From: Nitrospirota bacterium
GTDB lineage: Bacteria; Nitrospirota; UBA9217
Direction: 5' to 3'
Assembly (NCBI GenBank): GCA_035623825.1
Contig: DASPSR010000007.1
Span: 128,001 to 192,000, forward strand
DNA length: 64,000 nucleotides
Both the position numbers and the translations under genes were made by a program. The notes under the pieces are model-generated. The model was given only the letters and a program-made list of their open reading frames with translations, was not told where the DNA came from and searched no databases. Below, in pieces: positions 15,970 to 28,235 of this stretch (its first letter is position 1; each line of letters begins with the position of its first letter).

Positions 15970-16173
15970 ATCATAAAGACGATCATAACCGTGGAGGCAC
16001 GGAAGAAAGTTCAAGATCCAAATGCCAAAGATAGTTTAGCGGTCGAAAATCAAACAGGTTGCCGAAAGGCTTTCACATTAATATGATATTTGAGCAATGA
16101 TGCTCGCCTTTCTTTTATCGGTGTGCCTCTGTGGTTAAATTTTTGTTTGAGACGTTCGCGAGGATCGTACCCT

Positions 16174-17805
16174 ATGAAGGCATCTGATCTATTCGTAAAG
16201 CAACTCGAAGAAGAGAGCGTCGAGTATATATTTGGCCTTCCCGGGGAGGAGAACCTCGACTTTCTCGAATCGCTCCGCACATCCTCGATTAAGGTCGTCA
16301 TTACGCGGCACGAACAGGCCGCAGCGTTCATGGCCGCCACTTATGGCAGATTGACAGGAAAGGCCGGTGTCTGCTTTTCGACGCTGGGGCCGGGGGCGAC
16401 AAACCTCATGACAGGCGTGGCTCATGCGCAGCTCATCGGCGCACCGCTCATCGCCATCACCGGCCAAAAAGCTCTTCGCGATAACTGGCAGGCAGCCTTT
16501 CAGCTCATCGATGTTGCGAGCATCATGCACCCCGTCACGAAGTATTCCCTCTCAATTGCCGATCCAAGCACCATCCCTACAGTCACGCGGAAAGCGTTCC
16601 GGATCGCACAGTCGGAACGTCCGGGCGCCGTACATATCGAGTTGCCTGAGGATGTCGCCCAGAGCGAGGCGCGCGCGGCCGTACAGAAACGAGGCTATGA
16701 ACGCCGGCCATCTCCTGACCCCAAGGCCGTGGACCGCGCAGCATCCCTGATCAACGCTGCGCAGAACCCCCTCCTCATTCTCTCCTCCGGCGCCAACCGG
16801 AAGTTGATCTCGCGCCGAATAAGCGAGTTCGTGGAGAAAACGGGGATCCACGCGGTTCATACACAAATGGGCAAAGGCGTGCTGAGCGATGCGTCTGAAT
16901 ATAGTCTCTTTGCCACCGGAATCCACAAAAAGGATTTCGTGAACTGTGGCATCGATAAAGCCGACCTCATCGTCACGGTGGGATACAACATCGTCGAGTA
17001 TCCGCCCTACCTCTGGAACGAGCGCTTGGACAAGGAAGTGATCCATATCGGATTCACCCCGGCCGCACTGGACAGGTATTACAACCCTGCTGTCGAAGTT
17101 GTTGGGGATGTGTCAGCGACGCTCAGATCGCTATGTGAGAGGGTTGGGCGAAAGAGCGGAAAAACGTTCCGAGCCATCCGCGCCTATCTGGGGAAAAAGC
17201 TCGCCATTGATCCCACCCGTCAGTTCCCACCCACTCCCCAAGAGGTGGTCTGGCATGTGCGGAATGTGCTGTCCGAGGACGACATCGTTACGATGGACAA
17301 CGGGATCTATAAACTCTGGTTCTCACGGCTCTATAAGACCTATAACCCCAATACTTTTTTACTCGATAATGCCCTTGCGACGATGGGCGCAGGTCTTCCA
17401 TCGGCCACGGCAGCGAAGATGCTCAATCCCGACAAGAATGTCCTCGCTGTAGTGGGAGACGGAGGATTCATGATGAACTCTCAGGAACTGGAGACGGCGC
17501 TCCGATACAACATTCCCGTTGTCGTGCTAATCCTTAACGATAACGCCTTTGGGTTCATCAAGTGGGAGCAGCAGGCCAAGGGCTTCAAAAATTTCAGCTT
17601 GGACTTCGGAAACCCCGACTTTTCACGTTTCGCGGAGAGCTTCGGTGCGGCGGGTTTCAAAGTCCGGAAAGGGGACGACCTCTCGAATGTGTTACGCGAG
17701 GCCTTTGCACTCAAGAGGCCGGCGGTGATCGAATGTCCCATTGATTATTCCGTCAACTATGCAACTTTCTCAAAAGAGCTCTCGAACTTTGTGTGCGAGG
17801 TGTGA
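16174..17805 (+). CDS. ThDP-dependent enzyme of the acetolactate-synthase-like family; probable 2-oxoglutarate decarboxylase
   Basis: IFGLPGEENL, RHEQAAAFMA, STLGPGATN, GDGGFMMNSQELETA (ThDP motif), CPIDYS; no ilvN or ilvC nearby; directly after the SSADH gene. Confidence 0.8.
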   Translation: MKASDLFVKQLEEESVEYIFGLPGEENLDFLESLRTSSIKVVITRHEQAAAFMAATYGRLTGKAGVCFSTLGPGATNLMTGVAHAQLIGAPLIAITGQKALRDNWQAAFQLIDVASIMHPVTKYSLSIADPSTIPTVTRKAFRIAQSERPGAVHIELPEDVAQSEARAAVQKRGYERRPSPDPKAVDRAASLINAAQNPLLILSSGANRKLISRRISEFVEKTGIHAVHTQMGKGVLSDASEYSLFATGIHKKDFVNCGIDKADLIVTVGYNIVEYPPYLWNERLDKEVIHIGFTPAALDRYYNPAVEVVGDVSATLRSLCERVGRKSGKTFRAIRAYLGKKLAIDPTRQFPPTPQEVVWHVRNVLSEDDIVTMDNGIYKLWFSRLYKTYNPNTFLLDNALATMGAGLPSATAAKMLNPDKNVLAVVGDGGFMMNSQELETALRYNIPVVVLILNDNAFGFIKWEQQAKGFKNFSLDFGNPDFSRFAESFGAAGFKVRKGDDLSNVLREAFALKRPAVIECPIDYSVNYATFSKELSNFVCEV

Positions 17806-17849
17806 CCCTAAACAACAACAACAAGAACGACGACGCCGATGAGTGATGA

Positions 17850-17920
17850 TGTATCAGGAGACAATAAAGTTCGCCCAGAGATAACAAAGTTTGCCCTAGA
17901 CAATAGAATTCTTCCAATTA
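17850..17920 (+). mobile_element. Tn7-like right-end remnant: three juxtaposed TnsB-type sites
   Basis: GACAATAAAGTTCGCCC, GATAACAAAGTTTGCCC and GACAATAGAATTCTTCCAAT at 19-20 bp spacing. The third matches the reverse complement of 21620-21640 at 19/21. The terminus is degenerate (TGTATCAG). Confidence 0.65.
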
Positions 17921-17934
17921 GCACCACTTCAAGC

Positions 17935-18060
17935 TCAATTAAAGACTTCCTCAGGATAGACTTCCGGTTTGTAGTAATGTAATGTATCCTCGGAATGTAA
18001 CGGATGATGACCAATTGTATGAGCAATAGTAAAACGCTGCATGTGCGCATGATCGTCTTC
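17935..18060 (-). pseudogene. Fragment of ImmA/IrrE-family metallopeptidase
   Basis: QRFTIAHTIGHHPLH resembles RQRFTIAHE[LI]GHxxLH with the catalytic Glu lost; no intact start or context. Confidence 0.5.
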
Positions 18061-18193
18061 TCTTCCGCCAAGAAATAGTTGCTCCCTCTTTCTTAAAGAA
18101 AACACCCGAGATGCCGCCATCAGAAAATGGAAAAGGAATAATATCAAGCTGTTCGTGAAACTGCCAGATTGTTTCAAAATTCCTGGCCAGCCC

Positions 18194-19735
18194 CTATTCC
18201 CTCGGAGGGCGACTCAGCACATCGAGGGCTACCGGATTTATAAGGCGCAGGTCCTTTGTATAGATCCCGACGCCTGGATATTCGGAATAGTATTCCCAGA
18301 AGCTCCAATGAAGACCTTCATCGCGCATAATACTGGTGAGATCCTGTAGGTATCTGACAACACTTTCCCGAGCCGGGTTCGCGTGGGCAGTGAATTCTCC
18401 AACATAGAGCGGTACCTTGTGAAGGGACTTGAACCGCAATGCATAGCCAAGTTGTTCGAGGATCGCTTTCCTGTCCACATGCCCAAGCATTCTTCGTTTG
18501 TGCCAGGACAGGGAAAGAACATTTTCTCCGGTCGCTCGTTCTGAGCTATACCATCCTGAAAGACGGTACTCGCCTTGTTCAACTTCAAAGGGGCTGCTCG
18601 TTGCTGAACCAGGCGTCTGGCACCCGGACAAAGCCAGGGAGAATTTCCCGGTATGTGCGGCCTTGTCAGTAACACTCACGCATGCGCCCCGAATATTCCA
18701 GCTTATTCCCGGATAATCTATCTCAAAAGAGCTGTTCGAGACGAGGGGGGCGGGCAGTTCAAGAGTGCGACCATCGACTTCAAGCATGATATCATCGACA
18801 AATACGGTCCCGGCATTACCATATGATGAGATGTTCACCAAAAGCAGTTCAGCCCCTTCAGGGGGCCGCGCCCGGACGCTTACGCGTGACCATCCGTTGT
18901 CTCCTGTCATCGTTCCGGTCTTTGTTTCACCGATCTTTTCCCCGAATGTTGTCATCGCTCCGGGGTATGTTAATGCGACTCGTTCCGTTGTGGTCACGTA
19001 GAGGGTGAAAGAGGACGGGTAGAAAAAGTGAATGCTGTAAACCGTGTTCTTGTCTGGGAAAAGAAACAACTCGTTCCTTCCACCAGGCAGCAGGGCTTCT
19101 TCAATAATAAGAATATGGTTCTTGTCGCGTGAGCGTATCTTTTTTATTGTGGTGCTCATGACGCGGATATAATCCTTTCCTGTTGGAGGCTCCCCTTCAT
19201 TCAGGAGATCATATCCTGCGACGATAGTTTGCTGGGCATACCTTTCAGCGATTTTTTCCCACAGCGAGTAGAAGCATTCCTGATGCTCGTCCTTAGACCA
19301 AAAGTCGAAGGCTGTTTGTCTGTGGACGACAAAATCATGGGAGTTCTGGATTCCCGGAGCAAGGTGCATATCGAGGACGACAAAAACAGCATATTTCTTG
19401 CACCAGTTCAGGAGAGTATCGAGGAGGGTAAAGTTGGCTTCGTTGTAGTTGAACGGCTCGACCACAAAGTCTCGATAATCAATCACGAGACGAATGCTGT
19501 TCCAGGCTGAATCGGCAATTCTCCTTATGTCCTGCTCGCCCAGTGCGTGCTTGAAATGCTTGAACTGTACATTGATGCCACGAAGCAGTATCCGTTTGCC
19601 AGAAGCATCAAGGATCTTTTCTCCCTTGACCTGGAGAAATTTTTCTTGGGTATTGCCGGAAGATACTTGTGTGGTATGAAGCAGTATCGAAATGAACAGG
19701 GTAACCGTAAGAATGGTCTTTATCATTATCGTCAA
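18194..19735 (-). CDS. Secreted GH5 glycoside hydrolase with inserted carbohydrate-binding-like domains
   Basis: Signal peptide; LRGIN, NSIRL, VVLDMHLAPG, YDLLNE (acid/base), YSIHFFYP, LYVGEF (nucleophile), WSFWEY; about 200-aa insert with VFVDDI and NSSFE. Confidence 0.88.
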   Translation of the reverse strand: MTIMIKTILTVTLFISILLHTTQVSSGNTQEKFLQVKGEKILDASGKRILLRGINVQFKHFKHALGEQDIRRIADSAWNSIRLVIDYRDFVVEPFNYNEANFTLLDTLLNWCKKYAVFVVLDMHLAPGIQNSHDFVVHRQTAFDFWSKDEHQECFYSLWEKIAERYAQQTIVAGYDLLNEGEPPTGKDYIRVMSTTIKKIRSRDKNHILIIEEALLPGGRNELFLFPDKNTVYSIHFFYPSSFTLYVTTTERVALTYPGAMTTFGEKIGETKTGTMTGDNGWSRVSVRARPPEGAELLLVNISSYGNAGTVFVDDIMLEVDGRTLELPAPLVSNSSFEIDYPGISWNIRGACVSVTDKAAHTGKFSLALSGCQTPGSATSSPFEVEQGEYRLSGWYSSERATGENVLSLSWHKRRMLGHVDRKAILEQLGYALRFKSLHKVPLYVGEFTAHANPARESVVRYLQDLTSIMRDEGLHWSFWEYYSEYPGVGIYTKDLRLINPVALDVLSRPPRE

Positions 19736-19774
19736 TGGGCGGGACAGGTAATGAGACTTTTTGAAGGCCTGATG

Positions 19775-19945
19775 TTAAGATGTCTTCATTGTCCGGGGAT
19801 CTGAGCAAGGTTCCCCTCTCCTGCACTGCGAAGACTTAGTCCCGCATAGAGTGTACCAGTTCTTGAAGCCGTAGTAGAATACAAGCGTCACATAAATGCA
19901 GATCGCCGCCACGACGGCTATGATGATCAGCATGATCGTCACCAT
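19775..19945 (-). CDS. Small (56 aa) single-TM protein with Cys-containing tail
   Basis: Below the ORF-track cutoff. SD AGGAGGT then MVTIMLIIIAVVAAICIYVTLVFYYGFKNWYTLCGTKSSQCRRGEPCSDPRTMKTS; ends 40 bp before the GH5 gene. Confidence 0.6.
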   Translation of the reverse strand: MVTIMLIIIAVVAAICIYVTLVFYYGFKNWYTLCGTKSSQCRRGEPCSDPRTMKTS

Positions 19946-20190
19946 ACCACCTCCTGCCGATATATCTTAGTATATGATAGCGCTGAGACAGAAGAAGTCA
20001 AGAGGAGAAAAGGCTGAGGAAAGAGTACCCTATCGTGTCACTCTAACGCTGCACCCATATCATCGATGGAGCCTTCATCTTTTATCACCATGAAAGTCTC
20101 CGGCTTTAGTTGTTGACTCAGAACCAACTGGATCGTTACAAGAAAACAGGCCATTAAATACAGAAGATGAGAGATATTCCAGGAGGATCT

Positions 20191-20333
20191 TCACCGAGCT
20201 GCGTATTTCTCGGCGAACACAGAATATATCCGCTCGCTCAGTTCATCTGCTTGTTGGGCGATCGCAAAGCAGGACAAGAGAACTAACGCAACGATACTGC
20301 CGGCGAGAAACGATACTGCGCACAGAATCCCAT
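20191..20333 (-). pseudogene. Frameshifted small membrane-protein gene remnant
   Basis: Frame reads ILCAVSFLAGSIVALVLLSCFAIAQQADELSERIYSVFAEKYAAR*; the ATG at 20333 after AAAGGG is one base out of frame. Confidence 0.35.
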
Positions 20334-20432
20334 TCCCTTTTAATTCAATTGGTTCTGACGCAAAAGACGCATTTCAGCATGTGATGTGCATCGGTAATAA
20401 CAAAAAAAGGCAAAAGTAACGCGACCGACGGC

Positions 20433-21314
20433 CTAAGATGTTTCTTCAAGAATGTCCTTTTGATCGCGCACAGCCAGATGGGCGGCCAAGGACCTTGCCA
20501 CAATAGGGTTCGAGAGTTCTGGCGGAATCGAGATATCCTTCAGCACGCATCGGGACAATTCCATGAGATCGGACGTAGCCGCATGACGAGAGCACTTTCT
20601 TACCGCCGTATGAACGCGTTGAAGATACTGCAGCCCCTCATTCATGCGTTGGTAGACGAGGGCACCTTGCCGGGGTTCATCCCAAGAGGGGAGGAGATAA
20701 TGAAGGTCCTTAACGGCCTTAAGCTTTTGTATGGACGCAACCGAGGCCGGGACATCCTCGTAGATGGGCAGCTCGCCGGGAACGGGGATGGCATCTCCTG
20801 AAAAGAGCGCCTGGTATCCGAGCAGCAGAATGGCGATCGAGCCTTTCGAGTGGCCCGGGGTGTGGATCACCTGCAGCTTGAGGCCGCAGCCGAGGTCAAA
20901 AACCTCACCGTCCTCGAGCAGCCTGTTCACTACCAATGATCCAGCCACAAGAGAGCCGAAACCGGGTACCGGCCTCTCCTTTGCCTGCAGCTGTACATTC
21001 TCGATCCAAGCCTTTTCCGCGGCGTGAGCGGCAATAGCGCATCCCGTCTCCCCCTTTATGGTTCTTGATGCCCCGATATGGTCCGGATGAGAATGCGTCT
21101 GGACAATCAGCGATATGTCGCTTACTCTCCGGTCTGTCGCCCTCAGATAATTGAAGATCGTCTCCTCGGCAGACGCCACGCCGGCATCGATAAGACAGAT
21201 CCCATGCGTGCCGTAGATAAGATAGACGTATACGAACCGCTCCAGCGTCACGCCCCACGGGGTCGTTATGGTAAAGGGAATCTTGATTGCATGAATTTGC
21301 TTGTTGATCTGCAT
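20433..21314 (-). CDS. Metallo-beta-lactamase-fold hydrolase
   Basis: LIDAG, THSHPDHIG, HTPGHSKG, LFSGD; start set at MQINKQ. Confidence 0.9.
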   Translation of the reverse strand: MQINKQIHAIKIPFTITTPWGVTLERFVYVYLIYGTHGICLIDAGVASAEETIFNYLRATDRRVSDISLIVQTHSHPDHIGASRTIKGETGCAIAAHAAEKAWIENVQLQAKERPVPGFGSLVAGSLVVNRLLEDGEVFDLGCGLKLQVIHTPGHSKGSIAILLLGYQALFSGDAIPVPGELPIYEDVPASVASIQKLKAVKDLHYLLPSWDEPRQGALVYQRMNEGLQYLQRVHTAVRKCSRHAATSDLMELSRCVLKDISIPPELSNPIVARSLAAHLAVRDQKDILEETS

Positions 21315-21427
21315 TGATACAGTATTTCCTTTTCCCCATACTATAGAATATTTGAATCCATTGCAAGATAAAACAAGGAAGACCTCGCAAGGGGCTGCCT
21401 TTTTGTCAGTGATCCACATAAATGCGC

Positions 21428-21517
21428 TTCAACGTATTTAACGGCGCTCTCTACTATGCAGCCAATGATGCCACGAATGGTTGAGAGCATTGGAATACTG
21501 ACGGTACCATGGCCGAA
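21428..21517 (+). pseudogene. ELWxxDGT-repeat protein fragment
   Basis: Reads FNVFNGALYYAANDATNG*EHWNTDGTMAE: one repeat with an in-frame stop. Confidence 0.6.
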
Positions 21518-21597
21518 TTAATAAAACTCAAATCTATACTGGAACACGCAGCAGTTGCGTTTCTTGGAAATTCTAATTTTATCCTATCGGCTAAAAA

Positions 21598-21746
21598 AGT
21601 AAGAACTTTATTGTTTGCGATTGGAAGAACTTTATTGTCTTAAACGGGGAAAAGTAAGAACTTTGTCTTTTTTGCCGATTTTCGAACACTATATAAATCA
21701 ATGAGTTAGAATAAGCATTTTGCAACAACTTTGTTGTTTGCAGACA
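21598..21746 (-). mobile_element. Tn7-like left end, copy 1
   Basis: Minus-strand terminus TGTCTGCAAACAACAAAGTT; internal sites at 21601, 21625 and 21656; perfect IHF consensus AATCAATGAGTTA at 21696-21708. Confidence 0.8.
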
Positions 21747-21879
21747 ACAAACGTCGTCGGCGAAACAAGGGAGAACCATGGACCGTAAAGGCAAGACTGC
21801 ACCTCAATTTCACAAAGAGGAAAGAGAATCTTGGAATTACCGATCTTACTAAATTTCCGCCCAAGTTCTGACATGACGG

Positions 21880-22854
21880 CTATCTCTGCTTCCTCTCCCA
21901 TTCCCATGCAGTCTTGATGATGTAATCGAGGGAATCGAATTTCGGCTTCCAATTCAGTTTTTGTTTCAACCTGGAACTGTCAGCAACCAGGACTGGAGGG
22001 TCTCCTCCCCTTCGCTCAGTCTCCTGGACCACAAAGCTCTTCCCAGTTACCTTCTTGGCGGTATCAATCACTTCCCTTACGGAGTATCCATGGCCGTAGC
22101 CACAATTAAAAAAATCACTCTTGCCACCCTCAAGAAGATATTTGAGTGCAAGAAGATGAGCATCGGCAAGGTCTTCTACATGGATATAGTCCCTGATACA
22201 TGTGCCGTCAGGAGTGGGGTAATTTGTCCCGTATACCTTGATGCTCTGGCGCTCCCCTTTTGCGGTCTTTAATATAAGCGGAATTAGGTGCGATTCAGGG
22301 TTGTGCCGCTCCCCGATTCGTCCCTTAGAATCCGCCCCTGCGGTATTGAAGTAACGGAGGGAAATCTGTTGAAAATCCATGGCAGCCGACAGATCCTTTA
22401 AGACCTGTTCAACAATGACCTTTGATTGACCATAGGGATTGATGGGGCTTATCTTCTCATCTTCGGTTATCGGGACTTTTTCGGGAATGCCGTACACGGC
22501 CGCGCTAGAAGAAAAGATGAATTTGCGCACCCGATGTTTTGTGAGGACATCTAGAAGGTTTAAGGTGTTTCCTACGTTGTTTACATAATATTTAATAGCA
22601 TTACTGACCGATTCGCCGACCTCGATGAAAGCCGCAAAATGCATCACCGCATTAGGCCTGAACCATTTTACGGTATGTTCAAGTCGCATCGTATCAGCTA
22701 GGTCACCAACGACTAGTTCACCATCCAAGACAGAATCACGGTAGCCCCTCGAAAGGTTGTCGTAGACCAGTATCGTAAAACCCGCTTCATCTAGGGCTTT
22801 GACGACGTGACTTCCTATATATCCGGCACCGCCGGTGACAAGGATATTTCTCAA
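21880..22854 (-). CDS. galE: UDP-glucose 4-epimerase
   Basis: ILVTGGAGYIGSH, HFAAFIEVGES, FSSSAAVYG, PYGQSK, LRYFN, DGTCIRDYIHV. Confidence 0.96.
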   Translation of the reverse strand: MRNILVTGGAGYIGSHVVKALDEAGFTILVYDNLSRGYRDSVLDGELVVGDLADTMRLEHTVKWFRPNAVMHFAAFIEVGESVSNAIKYYVNNVGNTLNLLDVLTKHRVRKFIFSSSAAVYGIPEKVPITEDEKISPINPYGQSKVIVEQVLKDLSAAMDFQQISLRYFNTAGADSKGRIGERHNPESHLIPLILKTAKGERQSIKVYGTNYPTPDGTCIRDYIHVEDLADAHLLALKYLLEGGKSDFFNCGYGHGYSVREVIDTAKKVTGKSFVVQETERRGGDPPVLVADSSRLKQKLNWKPKFDSLDYIIKTAWEWERKQR

Positions 22855-23197
22855 TAATGTCTCTCTTATAGTAAAAGTATTATGATCGTATTTCTTTACG
22901 ACTCAGTAAGTTAATAACACGAACACGACTACGAGTCAAATCGTATTTTCCGCTTTTGCAAATTCCTCAATCTAGCCACTTATTTAGTAAATCAAACTGT
23001 AAGTCCGTTACCATCCATTTCTCTGGTAACTAATCGGCTATTGAACAGCCCCACTTAGCTCATTGGAATGCACCTTGTTTAGTTCTTGCCATCATCTTGA
23101 TGTCTCCATAAAATGCTCTTGCAATTTGTAAATCGTTTTTAGTATGATAAGTGCATATGCGTTTTGCGGCCTTAGAATGCGGTTTATGGGCCAAAAA

Positions 23198-23344
23198 AAC
23201 AAGAAATTTATCGTCTGCGATTGTAAGAACTTTATTGTCTTAAACAGGGAAAAGTAAGAACTTTGTCTTTTTTGCCGATTTTTGAGCACTATATAATTCA
23301 ATGAGTTACTACGAGCTTTGTAATAACTTTATTGTCCGCAGACA
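23198..23344 (-). mobile_element. Tn7-like left end, copy 2
   Basis: Minus-strand terminus TGTCTGCGGACAATAAAGTT, close to the Tn7 end TGTGGGCGGACAATAAAGT; sites at 23201, 23225 and 23256; IHF-like ATTCAATGAGTTA at 23296-23308. Confidence 0.85.
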
Positions 23345-23460
23345 TCTCCTCCTCCTGTATGTTTCATATCGTAGTTATTACTCTCATCAACAGAATATTC
23401 TTCGTACGGATGTTTGCAAATAAAGAGATGTGATGTTGTGCAACATTCTGCCCAGTTTTA

Positions 23461-23489
23461 TTGACAAGCATAGCGGCCATTGCTATCCT
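23461..23489 (+). promoter_or_regulatory. Sigma70-type promoter
   Basis: TTGACA-N17-TATCCT with extended -10 TG, upstream of the CBM48 gene. Confidence 0.5.
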
Positions 23490-23610
23490 TAGATTAGTTA
23501 CAGAGGTATGATATCGCGATAAACTGAAAATAAGGAGAAGACGCCGTACGAAAGCTTGAAATGTGCGCGATTCACAATACTTCACAAATCAGAATGAGGA
23601 GGTGACATTT

Positions 23611-23934
23611 ATGCCGGCAATGGAGACCGTTAAAGAGATGAAGGAATCCATAAGCATACATCGGGGCTTCGGTAGGTCGCGAGACGTGGAATTCGTGCTT
23701 TATGCGCCTGAAGCTAAGAAAGCTTATATCGCAGGTAAATTCAACAATTGGAACACAGAACAGTATCCCATGAAAAAAGGCAAGGATGGGTTTTGGAGAA
23801 TAAAAATCAAACTATCTGCGGGGACGCATGAGTATAAGTATTTTGTTGATGGCGCTTGGGCTCAAGATGTTCCCTGTGCCGCACTGGTGCCGAATCCATT
23901 TGGCACTTCTAACTGTGTAATTTCAGTGAAGTGA
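23611..23934 (+). CDS. Glycogen-binding (CBM48/AMPK-beta-like, isoamylase early set) domain protein
   Basis: SD GAGGAGG; VEFVLYAPEAKKAYIAGKFNNW, GTHEYKYFVDGAW, NPFGTSN. Confidence 0.88.
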   Translation: MPAMETVKEMKESISIHRGFGRSRDVEFVLYAPEAKKAYIAGKFNNWNTEQYPMKKGKDGFWRIKIKLSAGTHEYKYFVDGAWAQDVPCAALVPNPFGTSNCVISVK

Positions 23935-24020
23935 TCGATTGTCGGGGTGACGATGCAGTCGAGGTCGTGTAAAAACCTCTGGGTGTTTTTCCCAGGCAAC
24001 CGTTAAAGCGAATCTTGACA

Positions 24021-24059
24021 GCCCCGTTCCGTGGACGTTAGGAGCGGGGTTTTGTATTT
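24021..24059 (+). terminator. Intrinsic terminator
   Basis: GCCCCGTTCC / GGAGCGGGGT stem followed by a T-rich tail. Confidence 0.6.
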
Positions 24060-24542
24060 ACTGCTCGTCTTTGCACTAGCAAATCGATGCGCGGACCTTT
24101 TCCGCTGTGTAACTACCAACCAGGGATTCACAATTTAATTTCGATATAGCCTCATGCCTATTAATAGGTGTCTTCGATACTGATGCGAATTCTAAAAAAT
24201 AAGGATTTCCGCTAGATGACTTTCGCCAGGCCTTCCTATTCGAAACGTGTGACTAAGACGTCTTATCAGCAAGAATAGATACATCCTGAAGTCGTTGTCG
24301 ATGTAATTCTTTGCAACCTTCATGTTTCCTGCCGAACGAAACAGCACGTATCCCGACTATCTCCATCCCAGGTGGTTGACAATTGTATCGTTCAGGAATA
24401 TAGTTTTTTCGATCCATGAATATCATGGCACAATCATTGCTAAACTCGATAATACCGGAAATTCGTTTTTTACGAGTTAAGCATAACCAGACAATCACTT
24501 GTTAGGCCTGTTAACAATTTCAAAAATCACCAAGGAGAAAAC

Positions 24543-24857
24543 ATGCGCTGGTATCACTACATTGCTTTCTTTTTTGCTGGAGCGTTTCTAACAAACGCAA
24601 TTCCTCATTTCGTCAACGGTATCTCCGGCTCAGCTTTTCAAAGCCCCTTCGCCTCTCCACTTGGGCAAGGCCTATCTTCAGCGTTGGTCAATGTTCTTTG
24701 GGGCTTTTTCAATTTTGTACTCGGCTACCTTCTGGTTTGCAGAGTTGGGACCTTCAGCCTCAGAAAGACCAGCCACGCAATTGCATTGGGTGCCGGAATC
24801 CTTTGTATGTCGCTTATGCTGGCCCATTCATTCGCGCGGTTCCATGGCGGATTGTAG
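24543..24857 (+). CDS. Small membrane protein (about 3 TM) carried as an integron gene cassette
   Basis: SD AAGGAG; hydrophobic helices, NAIPHFVNG.SG..FQSPFA.P motif; bounded by GTTAGGC (24501) and GCCTAAC (24867). Confidence 0.8.
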   Translation: MRWYHYIAFFFAGAFLTNAIPHFVNGISGSAFQSPFASPLGQGLSSALVNVLWGFFNFVLGYLLVCRVGTFSLRKTSHAIALGAGILCMSLMLAHSFARFHGGL

Positions 24858-24866
24858 TAATGGTCG

Positions 24867-24993
24867 GCCTAACCATAATACGCTCAAATCGGACCCAACA
24901 GCCGCTGATTGGTTCCTCCACCGGACATCCGTCCTTCTCGTCTCCTTCGTGCCTCCGGCTGGCGGTTGGTCCGGTTAGCGAGACTCGTTCTGA
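24867..24993 (+). mobile_element. Integron attC site
   Basis: R'' GCCTAAC; L'' GCT[C]AA with extra base; inner arms CGGACCCAACAGCC / GGCGGTTGGTCCG; L' GGTTAGC; R' GTTCTGA. R'' is the exact complement of the cassette-start GTTAGGC. Confidence 0.8.
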
Positions 24994-25184
24994 ATAGTAC
25001 TATTGGAATTATTGGAGTTTCCAACTCTGAGACTTAGTAGGTGCCGTTAACTCCGGTCGAGAGAAGGTCGTCTGATCTTTTCTGGTTGAAATGTTCAGCC
25101 TTAGTGTCTTCCTGAAAGGCGCTAGTTGCCATTCTTTTAAATATTGTTCGTTTCTCGTGAAAGTTGCAATTCTGGATGCAAAAT

Positions 25185-25330
25185 GGTAAGAAATTAATTG
25201 TCTGCAAATTTCACAACATTATTGTTTATTGAATTAAAATGTAAGAACTTTAGTTTTCGGGCGGTTTTCCGGCCATTGAAATATCAATGAGCTACAGACT
25301 TGTTTGTAAGGACTTAATTGTCTGCAGACA
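25185..25330 (-). mobile_element. Tn7-like left end, copy 3 (more diverged)
   Basis: Minus-strand terminus TGTCTGCAGACAATTAAGT; sites at 25188, ~25212 and 25243 with the same spacing as copies 1 and 2; IHF-like TATCAATGAGCTA at 25282-25294. Confidence 0.75.
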
Positions 25331-25410
25331 CCCCTCCTCTCTCGCTCGTCGTCTTTTTTTCATGGCTAACTGCAACTAGCTTCAGTTTTTCTCGCCTGCA
25401 TCTCTTCCCG

Positions 25411-25544
25411 TTGACAATGCAGCGCTAAAAGAATAAAATGTCGGACTCGCAATACCCGTAGATGATCAAGAACTCTTTCGGAATCCAACGCTATCTACTC
25501 CAAAACCGTTCACCATTGACATCGCACTAGTTCGGGCATATAGT
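25411..25544 (+). promoter_or_regulatory. Two tandem sigma70 promoters
   Basis: TTGACA-N17-TAAAAT (25411-25439) and TTGACA-N17-TATAGT (25516-25544). Confidence 0.6.
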
Positions 25545-25582
25545 TGGTGTGCTGCGATCTAACTGCAGGCCAAGAGTCAGAA

Positions 25583-26059
25583 ATGACAAAAGCAAACGAT
25601 ACGATAGGCCGTGATGATCCATTTGGCTTAAGTCGCTTCATAAATGCTCAAGACGGCGTCTATGATCGTGTCCTCGAGGAGTTGAAAAACGGCCGGAAGA
25701 GATCGCACTGGATGTGGTACATATTTCCGCAGGTTGATGGATTGGGATACAGTGCTACCTCGAAACACTATGCCATAAAAAGTGTAGAAGAGGCTCGGGC
25801 ATACTTAAATCACCCTGTTCTTGGATCAAGACTGTTGGAATGTGCAAACACTGTCTTGGCCACTGAAGGACGGTCAGCTTCTGGTATTTTTGGCTACCCC
25901 GATGATCTGAAGCTTCAATCCTCCATGACTCTTTTTGCATCCGTAGCGGATCAGGACTCCGTATTTGCCCATGTCCTTGATAAGTATTTTCAGGGCGAAC
26001 GCGACGTGAGAACGCTCCAGATATTGAAGAAAATGAGGGGGGACAAGGGCCGAGAATAG
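25583..26059 (+). CDS. DUF1810-family protein
   Basis: DPFGLSRFINAQ, GRKRSHWMWYIFPQ, AYLNHPVLGSRL, IFGYPDDLKLQSSMTLF. Confidence 0.88.
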   Translation: MTKANDTIGRDDPFGLSRFINAQDGVYDRVLEELKNGRKRSHWMWYIFPQVDGLGYSATSKHYAIKSVEEARAYLNHPVLGSRLLECANTVLATEGRSASGIFGYPDDLKLQSSMTLFASVADQDSVFAHVLDKYFQGERDVRTLQILKKMRGDKGRE

Positions 26060-26149
26060 CCTGGCGATGCGCTCCAACAGATGAGCTAATCAAATGATAA
26101 CTGCGCTTATGGTTATGAATCGTATATCTTTTATAGATCCTTTCTGTCA

Positions 26150-26275
26150 TATTATGCCACCGAACCTATACCTATAAATTTGCATTTCGGAAGCCTTTTG
26201 CTTCCAATCGTGCCCGGCAAATATATGCTTCCATAAAATAAGCGAAAAACACTTGGCTTGGACAAACTCAGCCAT
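26150..26275 (-). pseudogene. Frameshifted DUF2007-like (putative signal-transducing) gene remnant
   Basis: MAEFVQAK, then in a shifted frame FAYFMEAYICRARLEAKGF, resembling EAxxxxxxLExxGI. Confidence 0.35.
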
Positions 26276-26413
26276 AGAACGGATATATCATCACACCATA
26301 TGTAAATATATCTAGCAAGCTCACATAGTACTCCCTATATGAATTACGGGGCCAACAGCGTGAATACATCTGAAGCGAATAACAATTTCAATCCCCTTGC
26401 TAATTGTGCTAAC

Positions 26414-26520
26414 ATGATAGCATCAGATACAGGCATGCTGATCAACAACAACCCGGCACAATGAACAACAATGGTGCGCTAAACAATTTCGGGACACTGA
26501 ACAACTTCGTCAATCAATAG
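26414..26520 (+). pseudogene. Fragment of Asn/Gly-rich repeat (beta-helix/autotransporter-like) gene
   Basis: DTGMLINNN, frameshift, then GTMNNNGALNNFGTLNNF repeats of G-x-L-N-N. Confidence 0.4.
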
Positions 26521-26562
26521 GGAACAAAATAAGTTACAGATTCATTAATTTCAGGAGGCATT

Positions 26563-27390
26563 TTGACCATATCAAAAAATATTAGGCAATATTATTATAG
26601 CTTGTTTGATCTGTTAAAATTGGATAAAAATGGTGGGGATCCCAATGGGCCTGTGGTATCCCTGACAACTGTCCCGCACCGTATTGATAATATCAAGCCA
26701 ACGCTGGTCAGCTTATTGCGTCAAACGGTAAAACCAAAACGAATTGAAATAAACTTGAGCGAAGAATTGTTTGCGGGGAGAAAAATACCCATGTCGCTTC
26801 TAAACCTGGAAAATGTAAAAATATGTTGGCAAAAAAAGGATTACGGTCCTGCTACAAAATTGATTGCCACGATCGAAAGATATCAAACTCAAAACGAGAG
26901 AATAGTTATAGTTGATGATGATATGTATTATTCGAAAGATATGATATCGGATTTAATGGCTGCTGATATGAAAGCAGATGGCAAACACGTTTTTTGCATC
27001 AATGGCTTTTTATTACCAAGGGACCTTAAATCAGAATCTATTGGATCGGACAAGGCATTGAAGTCAGGCACCAGAAAAGTAGCGGTTATTGAGGGATGTG
27101 GTGGCTACATATTACGTTCTAACCATCTTGATTGGAAGTTACTGTTAAATCTTGAAAATGCTCCAGCAAGAGCCTTGTTTGATGACGATATTTGGTTTAG
27201 TGGTCATTTAAGCAAAGCTGGCGTTGACAAAATACAGATTCCGACCGGCAAAAGGAAGTCTCTGGTCAACTCCCATAAAGGATCTGCTATTAGTGGCGAC
27301 AGGTGGCAATTGCAATCGGATTTGATGATCTTTTTTAAAGATGATTGGAAAGATTATGAGTATGAACGTGATCAACCACGTACCTGCTGA
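26563..27390 (+). CDS. GT-A fold glycosyltransferase
   Basis: VVSLTTVPHRI, DYGPATKL, IVIVDDD, DDIWFSGHL; visibly AT-rich. Confidence 0.8.
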   Translation: MTISKNIRQYYYSLFDLLKLDKNGGDPNGPVVSLTTVPHRIDNIKPTLVSLLRQTVKPKRIEINLSEELFAGRKIPMSLLNLENVKICWQKKDYGPATKLIATIERYQTQNERIVIVDDDMYYSKDMISDLMAADMKADGKHVFCINGFLLPRDLKSESIGSDKALKSGTRKVAVIEGCGGYILRSNHLDWKLLLNLENAPARALFDDDIWFSGHLSKAGVDKIQIPTGKRKSLVNSHKGSAISGDRWQLQSDLMIFFKDDWKDYEYERDQPRTC

Positions 27391-27602
27391 GCCAGCCCAA
27401 TCATTAATCGTCTGTGCATGAAGAGATAGAGACCTGACGAGCACCGTGGTCTGTCATGGGTGCACGGTACACGCAGGGAAAGTGCCGACCACAGAGAGCC
27501 GGAAAGCTCGCCCAGACCGGCTTGAGGCAGGCGGGATTTTCGTCAGTATCTATGCCGGGTCCGTGCGCGCGGTCCGTAGTACGGCGATGAATGAGTTGCG
27601 GT

Positions 27603-28235
27603 ATGAAATCAGACGAGAGAAAAGACTTCGACAGAGAGGCGGCTACCTGGGACCAGAATCCAGGCAGGGTCAAGCTTGCCGATGACGTAGCCGATACGAT
27701 CATCAGAGAAATACACCCGACCAGAGATATGGACGTTCTGGATTTCGGCTGCGGTACGGGGTTGGTGACTCTCCGGCTGCAGCCTTTCGTGAAGACGATT
27801 ACTGGCGCTGACAGTTCAAAAGGCATGCTCGGCGTTCTCCAGGACAAGGTCAGCAGGTCGGGCCTGAAGAACGTTAAGATGCAATTCGCGGATTTTGAAA
27901 AGGGGGAGCGAGTAGAGGGAACGTTTCATTTGGTTGTGAGCAGCATGACCCTGCATCATGTGTCTGACACCGGCCAGCTGTTCAGGCAGTGGTATGGTCT
28001 GCTGCTGCCAGGCGGCGTGCTCTGCGCCGCCGATTTGGACGCGGAGGACGGTTCTTTTCACGGAGACAATTTTGGCGTGCTGCATTTTGGTTTTGATCGG
28101 CGACACCTGAAAGGGCTTCTCCAAAAGACTGGTTTTACGGAAGTCCGTGATGTAACGGCCGCAGCCGTTGAGAAAGAGATCGAAGGGAAGGGGAAACGGA
28201 CGTTCAGGGTGTTCCTGATAATCGGGAAAAAATAG
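27603..28235 (+). CDS. Class I SAM-dependent methyltransferase
   Basis: FDREAATWD, VLDFGCGTG, SSMTLHHV, HFGFDR. Confidence 0.9.
   Translation: MKSDERKDFDREAATWDQNPGRVKLADDVADTIIREIHPTRDMDVLDFGCGTGLVTLRLQPFVKTITGADSSKGMLGVLQDKVSRSGLKNVKMQFADFEKGERVEGTFHLVVSSMTLHHVSDTGQLFRQWYGLLLPGGVLCAADLDAEDGSFHGDNFGVLHFGFDRRHLKGLLQKTGFTEVRDVTAAAVEKEIEGKGKRTFRVFLIIGKK

What the first reader, a model, noticed from the sequence alone, without database searches (positions are those of the whole stretch)
17850..25330. Stacked Tn7-like transposon ends with no transposase: one right-end cluster facing three left ends
Seen: three ~145-bp direct repeats end in ...GCAGACA at 21746, 23344 and 25330. Each has four copies of a GACAATAAAGTT-like motif with the same spacing (24 and 31 bp between internal sites, then a gap to the terminal site). 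An inward-facing cluster of three such motifs lies at 17860-17920. Known: Tn7 ends begin TGTGGGCGGACAATAAAGT; right ends carry juxtaposed TnsB sites and left ends carry spaced ones. Inference: this is a non-autonomous nested element or an island built by repeated insertion. Each extra left end adds a cargo block (GH5+MBL; galE; CBM48+cassette), so Tns proteins supplied in trans could mobilise three sizes of element. Two duplicated ORFs in the track are artefacts of these ends.
Basis: partly seen in the sequence, partly recalled or inferred. Interest (0 to 1): 0.82.

Follow-up and report, generated by a model that had tools for sequence, protein, structure and literature searches.

The report
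Fossil Tn7-like transposon stack, no transposase
This is the decayed remains of several Tn7-like transposons that landed one after another at the same spot just behind an acetolactate-synthase-like gene, leaving one right end, three left ends and their cargo genes but no transposition genes; it is a good example of a known process, not a new kind of system.

Summary
Window 17852-17925 holds a right-end-type cluster of three abutting GACAATAAAGTT-like sites. Three homologous ~155-bp left ends with four sites each finish at 21746, 23344 and 25330.

The Tn7-like reading is supported:
- Homologous ends flank an apparently intact tnsA-tnsB-tnsC-tnsD-tnsD set in a related Nitrospirota genome (G012), at the same place: directly 3' of the orthologous acetolactate-synthase-like TPP gene, right end next to that gene.
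- G012 and G014 show 5-bp target duplications.
- Ends lie at this site in at least 8 of 64 genomes of the order. The cognate TnsB is in only 1 of 64.
- Two congeners have the empty site, with the TPP gene followed after about 45 bp by a methyltransferase gene.

The island is therefore larger than reported: 17806-27590 (9.8 kb), with low GC.

The window's own genome (89.65% complete) has no Tns protein and no other copy of the ends. No right/left pair has a target duplication, and no hidden right ends follow the left ends.

Best reading: serial insertions at one attachment site, with the right-end-plus-tns blocks later lost. "Mobilisable in three sizes" is unsupported.

The class is known; the attachment site may be unreported.

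The parts
16090..17805 (+). Acetolactate-synthase-like TPP enzyme gene. Its 3' end is the inferred attachment-site anchor.
   Evidence: Pfam TPP_enzyme_N/M/C. NCBIfam NF006187, 785.9 bits against a cut-off of 509. The flank is syntenic in 24 of 24 family genomes sampled.
17806..17851 (.). 46-nt spacer between the stop codon and the right end, rich in trinucleotide repeats. It is longer than the 9-20 nt seen in G012, G014, G043, G054 and G002.
17852..17925 (+). Right end: an 8-bp terminus followed by three abutting TnsB-type sites at 17860, 17880 and 17899 (19-20 bp apart).
   Evidence: It aligns with five other right ends. nhmmer E 9.3e-15.
17935..18177 (-). 80-aa ORF with a weak, sub-threshold IrrE/Peptidase_M78 match. 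Possibly a truncated gene just inside the right end.
   Evidence: E 9.3e-4, 19.4 bits against a cut-off of 22.
18194..19735 (-). Cargo block 1: GH5 glycoside hydrolase.
   Evidence: Pfam Cellulase. 85% nucleotide identity to a chromosomal gene of congener G001 that has no ends nearby.
20433..21419 (-). Cargo block 1: MBL-fold hydrolase. It is well below the NCBIfam cut-offs for true B3 beta-lactamases.
   Evidence: 72 bits against a cut-off of 240. 85% nucleotide identity to G001:C2.
21585..21746 (-). Left end L1: four sites and an IHF-consensus match at 21696-21708 in the gap.
   Evidence: nhmmer E 4e-38.
21880..22854 (-). Cargo block 2: UDP-glucose 4-epimerase GalE.
23185..23344 (-). Left end L2: four sites and an IHF-like motif at 23296-23308 (1 mismatch).
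   Evidence: nhmmer E 7.7e-39.
23563..23934 (+). Cargo block 3: 123-aa CBM48/AMPK1_CBM ORF. The other short ORFs up to 25000 have no family.
25172..25330 (-). Left end L3: four sites and an IHF-like motif at 25282-25294 (1 mismatch). It is the closest of the three to the G012 left ends (77-82%).
   Evidence: nhmmer E 4.4e-37.
25331..27590 (.). Distal block of the island: DUF1810 gene 25544-26059 (+) and a 275-aa ORF 26563-27390 (+) with no family. GC is 0.39-0.45. No transposon end was detected.
   Evidence: Absent between the TPP and methyltransferase genes in G001 and G003.
27591..28235 (+). SAM-dependent methyltransferase gene: the first gene of restored synteny and the right boundary of the island.
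   Evidence: It follows the TPP gene directly in G001 and G003.

Best explanation
The stretch 17806-27590 is a fossil stack of Tn7-like transposon insertions at one chromosomal attachment site, the first bases after an acetolactate-synthase-like TPP gene.

Shown:
- The ends are real Tn7-type ends. The right end has three abutting TnsB-type sites next to the anchor gene. The left ends have four spaced sites with a conserved gap.
- Homologous ends bound an apparently intact tnsABC+tnsD+tnsD element at the same site and in the same orientation in a related genome.
- Related genomes carry 5-bp target duplications there.
- Two congeners have the site empty.
- This genome has no transposition genes.

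Inferred:
- Related elements inserted repeatedly at the same position, each new one between the anchor gene and the previous one. The left ends would then run from youngest (L1) to oldest (L3), with the distal block older still.
- In each resident element the contiguous right-end-plus-tns block was deleted. What remained was its left-end-proximal cargo and left end.
- Loss of the resident right end may have been needed before the next related element could insert, because its TnsB sites would impose target immunity.

Today the array is immobile DNA. Its lasting effect is to have delivered carbohydrate-related genes (GH5, MBL-fold hydrolase, GalE, CBM48 protein) to this genome.
For: Ends and their enrichment.

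Left ends from four genomes and one further locus align over about 155 nt with the same four-site spacing. Six right ends align as an 8-bp terminus plus three abutting sites.

G012:
- TnsA, TnsB (651 aa), TnsC and two TnsD lie inside an island bounded by the TPP and methyltransferase orthologues.
- Its TnsB matches solved Tn7 TnsB 7pik at E 8e-95.
- The 5-mer CCTTC lies before its right end and after its third left end. A second right end abuts a left end across 6 bp.

G014: a 2.8-kb tns-less element at the same site is flanked by AATTT on both sides.

Empty site in G001 and G003; synteny resumes at window 27603.

Survey of the order:
- The left-end model hits 13 of 64 genomes, three of which supplied training rows.
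- Of the 10 other genomes, 4 have the hit within 20 bp to 4.7 kb downstream of the TPP orthologue in the expected orientation.
- G002 adds a degenerate right end there.

Other loci:
- Metagenome contig L071 has an L1-like left end 58 bp from the methyltransferase orthologue.
- L034 and L035 (TnsB 58-59% identical) carry tnsABCD followed by a homologous left end. E is 2.6e-10 with a profile that excluded L034, and 3.1e-12 for L035.

Own genome:
- No TnsA_N, TniQ or Mu-transpos_C; the only rve domain is an IS3.
- tblastn with the five G012 Tns proteins gives 0 hits.
- The ends occur nowhere else in it.

GC is 0.39-0.47 over 21000-27500 against 0.52-0.57 in the flanks.

Target immunity through TnsB sites is described in PMC11014353 (passages read).
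Against: - No 5-bp duplication links the window's right end to any left end. TGATG lies before the right end; ACAAA, TCTCC and CCCCT follow L1, L2 and L3. Flank alignments are no better than shuffles (L1: 241 of 500 shuffles reach the score).
- The right end lies 46 nt after the stop codon, not 9-20 nt as in the relatives.
- At the expected position the right terminus reads TAT, while the three left termini read TGT. They may not be partners.
- The deletions that removed two right ends and all tns genes are inferred. No remnant of a right end follows any left end, even at E up to 100 in 11.5 kb.
- G043 has both ends at the site but no matching 5-mers.
- The distal block 25331-27590 has no end, so its origin is open.
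- The genome is 89.65% complete in 67 contigs, so a tns set on unassembled DNA cannot be excluded.
- Which TnsD recognises the TPP gene was not tested.
- The immunity-gating step rests on two loci only.
Confidence: 0.75

Rival explanations
1. A living non-autonomous, nested mini-Tn7-like element. The single right end can pair with any of the three left ends, and a related transposase supplied in trans moves 3.9-, 5.5- or 7.5-kb units.
For: All four ends keep their full site architecture. G014 carries a tns-less 2.8-kb element with a clean 5-bp duplication, so small tns-less units do occur at this site. A cognate TnsABCD set exists in the same bacterial family.
Against: - No target duplication for any pairing (and direct reading).
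- A single locus in the genome.
- The only other occurrences, in 54 metagenome stretches, are the same locus at 99.5-100% identity.
- No Tns in this genome, and the cognate TnsB is in 1 of 64 genomes of the order.
- The G014 element could equally be an in-place deletion derivative.
Confidence: 0.12
2. The three left ends arose in place by local duplication of one left end, not from separate insertions.
For: L1 and L2 are 86-87% identical and lie in the same orientation, 1.6 kb apart.
Against: - Similarity stops exactly at the edges of the ends; the DNA between them is unrelated.
- L3 is closer to the G012 left ends (77-82%) than to L1 or L2 (about 70-74%).
- L071 has an L1-like end as the outermost end of its island.
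- G012 also stacks left ends, of two terminus types.
Confidence: 0.06
3. The repeats are operator or promoter arrays for a transcription factor that controls the genes beside them, not transposon ends.
For: Each left end lies upstream of a minus-strand gene (MBL-fold gene, galE, short ORFs), 166-330 bp from the start codon.
Against: - The neighbouring genes are unrelated to each other and differ between genomes.
- The repeats mark the edges of insertions that are missing from congeners.
- They carry target duplications in G012 and G014.
- They sit beside tnsABCD in G012, L034 and L035.
Confidence: 0.02

Closest known systems
Prototypic Tn7 and its attTn7 (glmS) pathway
   Same: - Right end with abutting TnsB sites next to a conserved anchor gene; left end with spaced sites.
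- Insertion a few bases after the stop codon, in one orientation.
- 5-bp duplications in relatives.
- In G012, a tnsA-tnsB-tnsC-tnsD gene order reading inward from the right-end side, and a TnsB matching Tn7 TnsB (7pik) at E 8e-95.
- A Tn7-like element on an E. coli plasmid (L114:1283-1345) also shows a TGT terminus and three abutting ~20-bp sites with an AATAAAGT core before tnsA.
   Different: - The anchor gene is an acetolactate-synthase-like TPP enzyme gene, not glmS.
- G012 has two TnsD-type genes and no TnsE.
- The second base of the terminus varies (TAT, TGT, TTT).
- The window copy has no tns genes at all.
Genomic or resistance islands built by repeated Tn7-like insertion at one att site (e.g. 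Tn6022/AbaR in comM; remnants downstream of nrdB in Acinetobacter)
   Same: Multiple insertions at one site, recognised by target duplications, followed by deletions that leave partial elements and remnants. PMC11014353, passages read.
   Different: Here the host is a Nitrospirota, the cargo is carbohydrate-related rather than resistance, every tns gene is gone, and only left ends of the older layers survive.
Type I-F CRISPR-associated Tn7-like transposons (left-end IHF site)
   Same: The long gap between the terminal and second TnsB site of each left end holds a match to the IHF consensus given in PMC10201428. The matches are at 21696 (exact), 23296 and 25282 (1 mismatch each). This stretch is among the best-conserved columns of the left-end alignment.
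   Different: There are no cas genes. The motif is not enriched in the window as a whole (88 found against 77 expected), so the IHF reading is only a lead.
Dual tniQ/tnsD Tn7-like loci
   Same: G012 carries two tandem TnsD-family genes (489 and 580 aa, 33% identical). This arrangement is reported for 1,048 loci in PMC10293859 (passages read).
   Different: Both are long TnsD types. Which one reads the TPP gene is unknown.

Membership tests
Tn7-like transposon (cis-acting ends) | Asymmetric ends made of repeated TnsB-binding sites: abutting in the right end, spaced in the left end, inverted relative to each other | tested here: met
Tn7-like transposon (cis-acting ends) | Terminal 5'-TGT...ACA-3' eight bases outside the first site | tested here: inconclusive
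   L1-L3 have TGT. The right end has TAT at that position, with a TGT 2 bp further out. Relatives show TAT, TGT and TTT termini, including the G014 element, which has a target duplication.
Tn7-like transposon (cis-acting ends) | 5-bp target-site duplication | tested here: not met
   Window: TGATG against ACAAA, TCTCC and CCCCT; flank alignments are at shuffle level. Met in relatives: G014 AATTT/AATTT and G012 CCTTC/CCTTC.
Tn7-like transposon (cis-acting ends) | Homologous ends found flanking tnsB and partner genes elsewhere | tested here: met
   G012, L034 and L035.
Tn7-like transposon (cis-acting ends) | Site- and orientation-specific insertion just downstream of a conserved gene, right end proximal | tested here: met
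   G000, G002, G012, G014, G043, G052, G054 and G062 all have ends after the TPP orthologue. G001 and G003 have the empty site.
Autonomous Tn7-like transposon | [quoted passage not shown] | tested here: not met
   None in the island or in the genome. The genome is 89.65% complete, and the controls for three of the Pfam searches were silent, so the tblastn carries the weight.
Mobilisable non-autonomous mini-Tn7-like element | A matched end pair with a target duplication, and more than one copy or site | tested here: not met
Mobilisable non-autonomous mini-Tn7-like element | Ends bound and cut by a TnsA/TnsB supplied in trans | not testable with these tools
   Needs a transposition or binding assay.
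Transcription-factor operator array | Repeats conserved upstream of orthologous genes | tested here: not met
   The neighbouring genes differ, and the repeats bound insertions.

The most novel reading that the evidence does not exclude
The stack may be a layered record produced by immunity-gated turnover. On this reading, a related incoming element can re-use the attachment site only after the resident's right end, with the adjacent tns genes, has been lost. Left ends with their cargo would then pile up as fossils while right ends do not.

The contrast with G012 fits this. There a right end survives next to a left end, but its sites are of a different type from those of the incoming element.

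In addition, this Tn7 lineage seems to tolerate any base at the second terminal position. TAT and TTT termini flank a clean 5-bp duplication in G014. That would relax the near-universal terminal CA rule for this transposase class.

The attachment site behind an acetolactate-synthase-like gene was not found in print. Searches gave 0 papers containing Tn7, TnsD and acetolactate together. The supplementary tables of PMC8649781, which lists 8 Nitrospirae hosts, could not be seen.
Probability: 0.25. Interest if true: 0.55.

Novelty: new member of a known kind. Interest (0 to 1): 0.38.

Why it matters
- It shows how a conserved metabolic gene in Nitrospirota serves as a landing pad that repeatedly takes in foreign DNA.
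- Ends are far more common than working transposases (ends in at least 13 of 64 genomes, the cognate TnsB in 1 of 64). Most such islands are therefore relics that annotation pipelines will miss, or will mis-call as small ORFs.
- It explains two spurious duplicated ORFs.
- It redraws the island boundaries to 9.8 kb.
- It identifies one apparently intact element (G012), with a defined attachment site and ends, that could be tested as a site-specific insertion system.

Tried and rejected
1. Hidden right ends after L1, L2 or L3. By eye, a TGTAT... stretch after L2 looked like a degenerate right end. The right-end profile found no +-strand hit there, even at E up to 100. Rejected.

2. Target duplications or longer flank repeats in the window. 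None was found; the scores are at shuffle level.

3. A TnsB fragment that I thought I saw upstream of G012 tnsA. tblastn did not confirm it. Dropped.

4. RNA genes in the island. Rfam at E up to 0.1 gave 0 matches and there are no tRNAs, so this is not a tRNA-type attachment site.

5. Shared cargo between the window island and the G012 island. tblastx matched only the left ends.

6. Ends around the G001:C2 homologues of the GH5 and MBL genes. None. Those copies are ordinary chromosomal genes.

7. Right ends of L034 and L035. The profile did not detect them. Their left boundary is known only from where the two loci stop aligning.

8. Tn7 right end from plasmid hit H22. An IS26 had removed it. 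H23 gave a usable Tn7-like right end.

9. The metagenome pattern scan. 54 stretches matched the 20-nt pattern, but only 6 matched the left-end profile at E up to 1e-3. Three of those are the window's own locus. The rest are what chance would give for a pattern of that information content, by my own rough estimate.

10. Tools and files not available.
- The look-up of encoding contigs is marked closed and was not called.
- Supplementary files were not opened. Table S1 of PMC8649781 may list Nitrospirae elements and their sites.

11. Tools not used: structure prediction, complex prediction, read mapping, and the large protein searches (search for homologous proteins, the search of protein representatives, atlas).

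Full report
**What is in the sequence**

The 12-nt site motif occurs 21 times in the window (up to 2 mismatches) against 3.78 expected (0 of 100 shuffles reach 21). 12 of the 21 lie between 17860 and 25322.

- Three sites are on the + strand at 17860, 17880 and 17899, 19-20 bp apart.
- Nine sites are on the - strand in three direct repeats of about 155 bp, which end in ...GCAGACA at 21746, 23344 and 25330.
- Each repeat also has a fourth site whose inner half is conserved (21659, 23259, 25246).
- L1 and L2 are 86-87% identical. L3 is about 70-74% identical to them.
- The two 'duplicated ORFs' share 28 of 34 residues only where they cross the repeats.

**What surrounds it**

- The + cluster starts 46 nt after the stop codon of a 571-aa TPP enzyme gene. 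That gene scores above the cut-off of NCBIfam NF006187, 'acetolactate synthase large subunit'.
- Between the ends lie a GH5 gene and an MBL-fold gene, then galE, then a 123-aa CBM48 ORF and short unassigned ORFs.
- No RNA family and no tRNA was found.

**Boundaries**

- In two congeners (G001, G003) the TPP gene is followed after about 45 bp by a methyltransferase gene. Long synteny with the window starts at 27603.
- The inserted DNA is therefore 17806-27590, 9.8 kb. It includes a distal 2.26-kb block (a DUF1810 gene and a 275-aa ORF) beyond the third left end. No end could be detected in that block.
- GC is 0.39-0.47 over 21000-27500 against 0.52-0.57 in the flanks. Genome GC is 0.53.
- The first block (GH5, MBL) has near-genomic GC. 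It is 85% identical to chromosomal genes of G001 that have no ends nearby.

**Are these transposon ends?**

The left-end sequence led to a relative, G012, whose record title calls it a Nitrospirota MAG.

- Between its TPP and methyltransferase orthologues G012 has a ~48-kb island.
- The island holds TnsA (277 aa), TnsB (651 aa), TnsC (516 aa) and two TnsD-family proteins (489 and 580 aa), all open.
- This TnsB matches the solved Tn7 TnsB (7pik) at E 8e-95 over residues 15-614.
- A right end with three abutting sites starts 12 nt after the TPP stop codon.
- Left ends homologous to the window's over their whole length lie at 359.7 kb, 362.1 kb (truncated) and 352.3 kb.
- A second right end, of a different site type, abuts the first left end across 6 bp.
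- The 5-mer CCTTC stands before the first right end and after the last left end. CCTTGC stands at the junction.

This is the pattern expected if two elements used the same 5-bp target in turn.

**Further genomes**

- G014 has a 2.8-kb element without tns genes at the same position, flanked by AATTT on both sides at exactly the predicted distance from the first sites.
- G002 has a degenerate right end in a 340-bp relic.
- A sequence-only model of seven left ends hit 13 of 64 genomes of the order at E up to 0.01. Three of the 13 supplied training rows.
- Of the other ten:
  - Four (G043, G052, G054, G062) have the hit 20 bp to 4.7 kb downstream of the TPP orthologue in the right orientation.
  - Four are on other contigs of fragmented assemblies, so the position cannot be told.
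  - Two weak hits (E 0.004-0.006), in well-assembled genomes, are elsewhere.
- Metagenome contig L071 has an L1-like left end (85%) 58 bp from the methyltransferase orthologue.
- Two elements with TnsB 58-59% identical to G012's (L034, L035) carry tnsABCD followed by a homologous left end.
- Six right ends align as an 8-bp terminus plus three abutting sites.
- A Tn7-like element on an E. coli plasmid shows the same right-end plan.

**What is missing here**

- The window's genome (3.24 Mb, 67 contigs, 89.65% complete) gave no TnsA_N, TniQ or Mu-transpos_C match. The control genomes were also silent for these three families, so those searches say little.
- Its only rve domain belongs to an IS3.
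- The stronger test is tblastn with the five G012 proteins: no hit at E up to 0.01.
- The end profiles hit only this locus.
- In the order, the cognate TnsB is found in 1 of 64 genomes. Two more have a 23-25% identical TnsB-like protein.

**Is the array still a transposon?**

- No pairing of the right end with L1, L2 or L3 has a 5-bp duplication, and the flanks are no more alike than shuffles.
- The right end sits 46 nt from the stop codon rather than 9-20 nt.
- At the standard position its terminus reads TAT, while the left ends read TGT.
- The only other copies found, among 54 metagenome stretches, are the same locus at 99.5-100% identity.

I therefore read it as fossil DNA, not a working non-autonomous element. 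An assay would be needed to exclude the latter.

**How the stack formed (inferred)**

- In Tn7-like elements the tns genes lie next to the right end, and cargo lies towards the left end.
- New insertions at an occupied site go between the anchor gene and the resident right end. The G012 junction shows this.
- One deletion that removes a resident's right end and tns block leaves 'cargo + left end'. That is exactly what each layer here consists of.
- A weak IrrE-like fragment just inside the surviving right end fits a deletion in the youngest layer too.
- TnsB sites of a resident element impose target immunity (PMC11014353, passages read). Loss of a homologous right end may therefore be what re-opens the site. 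In G012 the surviving internal right end has a different site type.
- This step rests on two loci and is a hypothesis.

**Comparison with what is known**

- Repeated Tn7-like insertion and decay at one attachment site is described for other hosts (PMC11014353, passages read).
- Tandem TnsD/TniQ genes are common (PMC10293859, passages read).
- Tn7-like elements have been counted in 8 Nitrospirae species (PMC8649781, passages read).
- I found no paper that links Tn7 or TnsD with acetolactate synthase. The supplementary tables could not be opened.
- The conserved gap of the left ends carries a match to the IHF consensus at the same place in all three copies. This is reminiscent of type I-F CAST left ends, but the motif is too loose to count as evidence on its own.

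**Verdict**

The 'repeated insertion' option is favoured, and the 'three mobilisable sizes' idea is unsupported. It is a clear, well-bounded relic of a known kind of element at a possibly unreported attachment site.

Noticed in passing
window 17852 (right end); L018:232 and about 3025; L012/L013/L039 ends; L044-L046, L052, L056: The second base of the 8-bp terminus varies in this lineage. It is TAT in many ends: the window right end; G012 R, La and Lb; the G014, G002 and G043 right ends; the G043, G045 and G061 left ends; and the L034 left end. It is TGT in others: window L1-L3, G012 R' and Lc, G054, and the second G062 locus. It is TTT in the G014 left end. The G014 element has TAT and TTT termini yet a clean 5-bp duplication.
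   Followed up: partly
window 19783-20331 (core 19842-19957): The stretch between the GH5 and MBL genes is 73% identical to G000:C35:290-854. A ~100-bp core recurs at 70-82% identity in at least seven other family genomes. It overlaps a 56-aa ORF (19775-19945, -) with a hydrophobic N-terminus. There is no Rfam match.
   Followed up: partly
L013:9717-13313 and L013:4396-9312 (G012 island, between right end and tnsA): About 11 kb of defence-like cargo lies between the G012 right end and tnsA. It comprises a ThiF (E1-like) plus prokaryotic E2 pair, an HTH plus IrrE/M78 pair, and type I restriction-modification M and S subunits with a helicase-like gene. In Tn7 proper, by recollection, tnsA lies next to the right end.
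   Followed up: no
L034:1531-8540 and L035:8485-15480: A compact 7-kb tnsABCD element is 79% identical between a Nitrospirales contig and a Gammaproteobacteria contig, which suggests transfer between phyla. In L035 a further 2.5 kb separates the left end from the flank that L034 shares. The right ends were not recognisable.
   Followed up: partly
contig ends in G004, G008, G015, G018, G021, G023: In six relatives the contig stops within a few hundred bases after the TPP gene (inside the gene in G015). Repeated or mobile DNA at this site would break assemblies in this way.
   Followed up: no
G000:C42:85304-86465 (L001:1303-2465): An IS3-family orfA/orfB pair next to a VapC-like PIN toxin gene and a small AbrB-like ORF, near a contig end. 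It holds the only rve domain in the genome. The IS3, PIN and AbrB labels are my reading of the translations, not tested family matches.
   Followed up: no
window 17806-17851 and L021:212-231: The spacer between the TPP stop codon and the right end is made of trinucleotide-repeat-like sequence in the window (AAC/GAC units) and in G002 (TGC units). It is longer than in G012 and G014. Possibly repeat expansion at the old target site.
   Followed up: no
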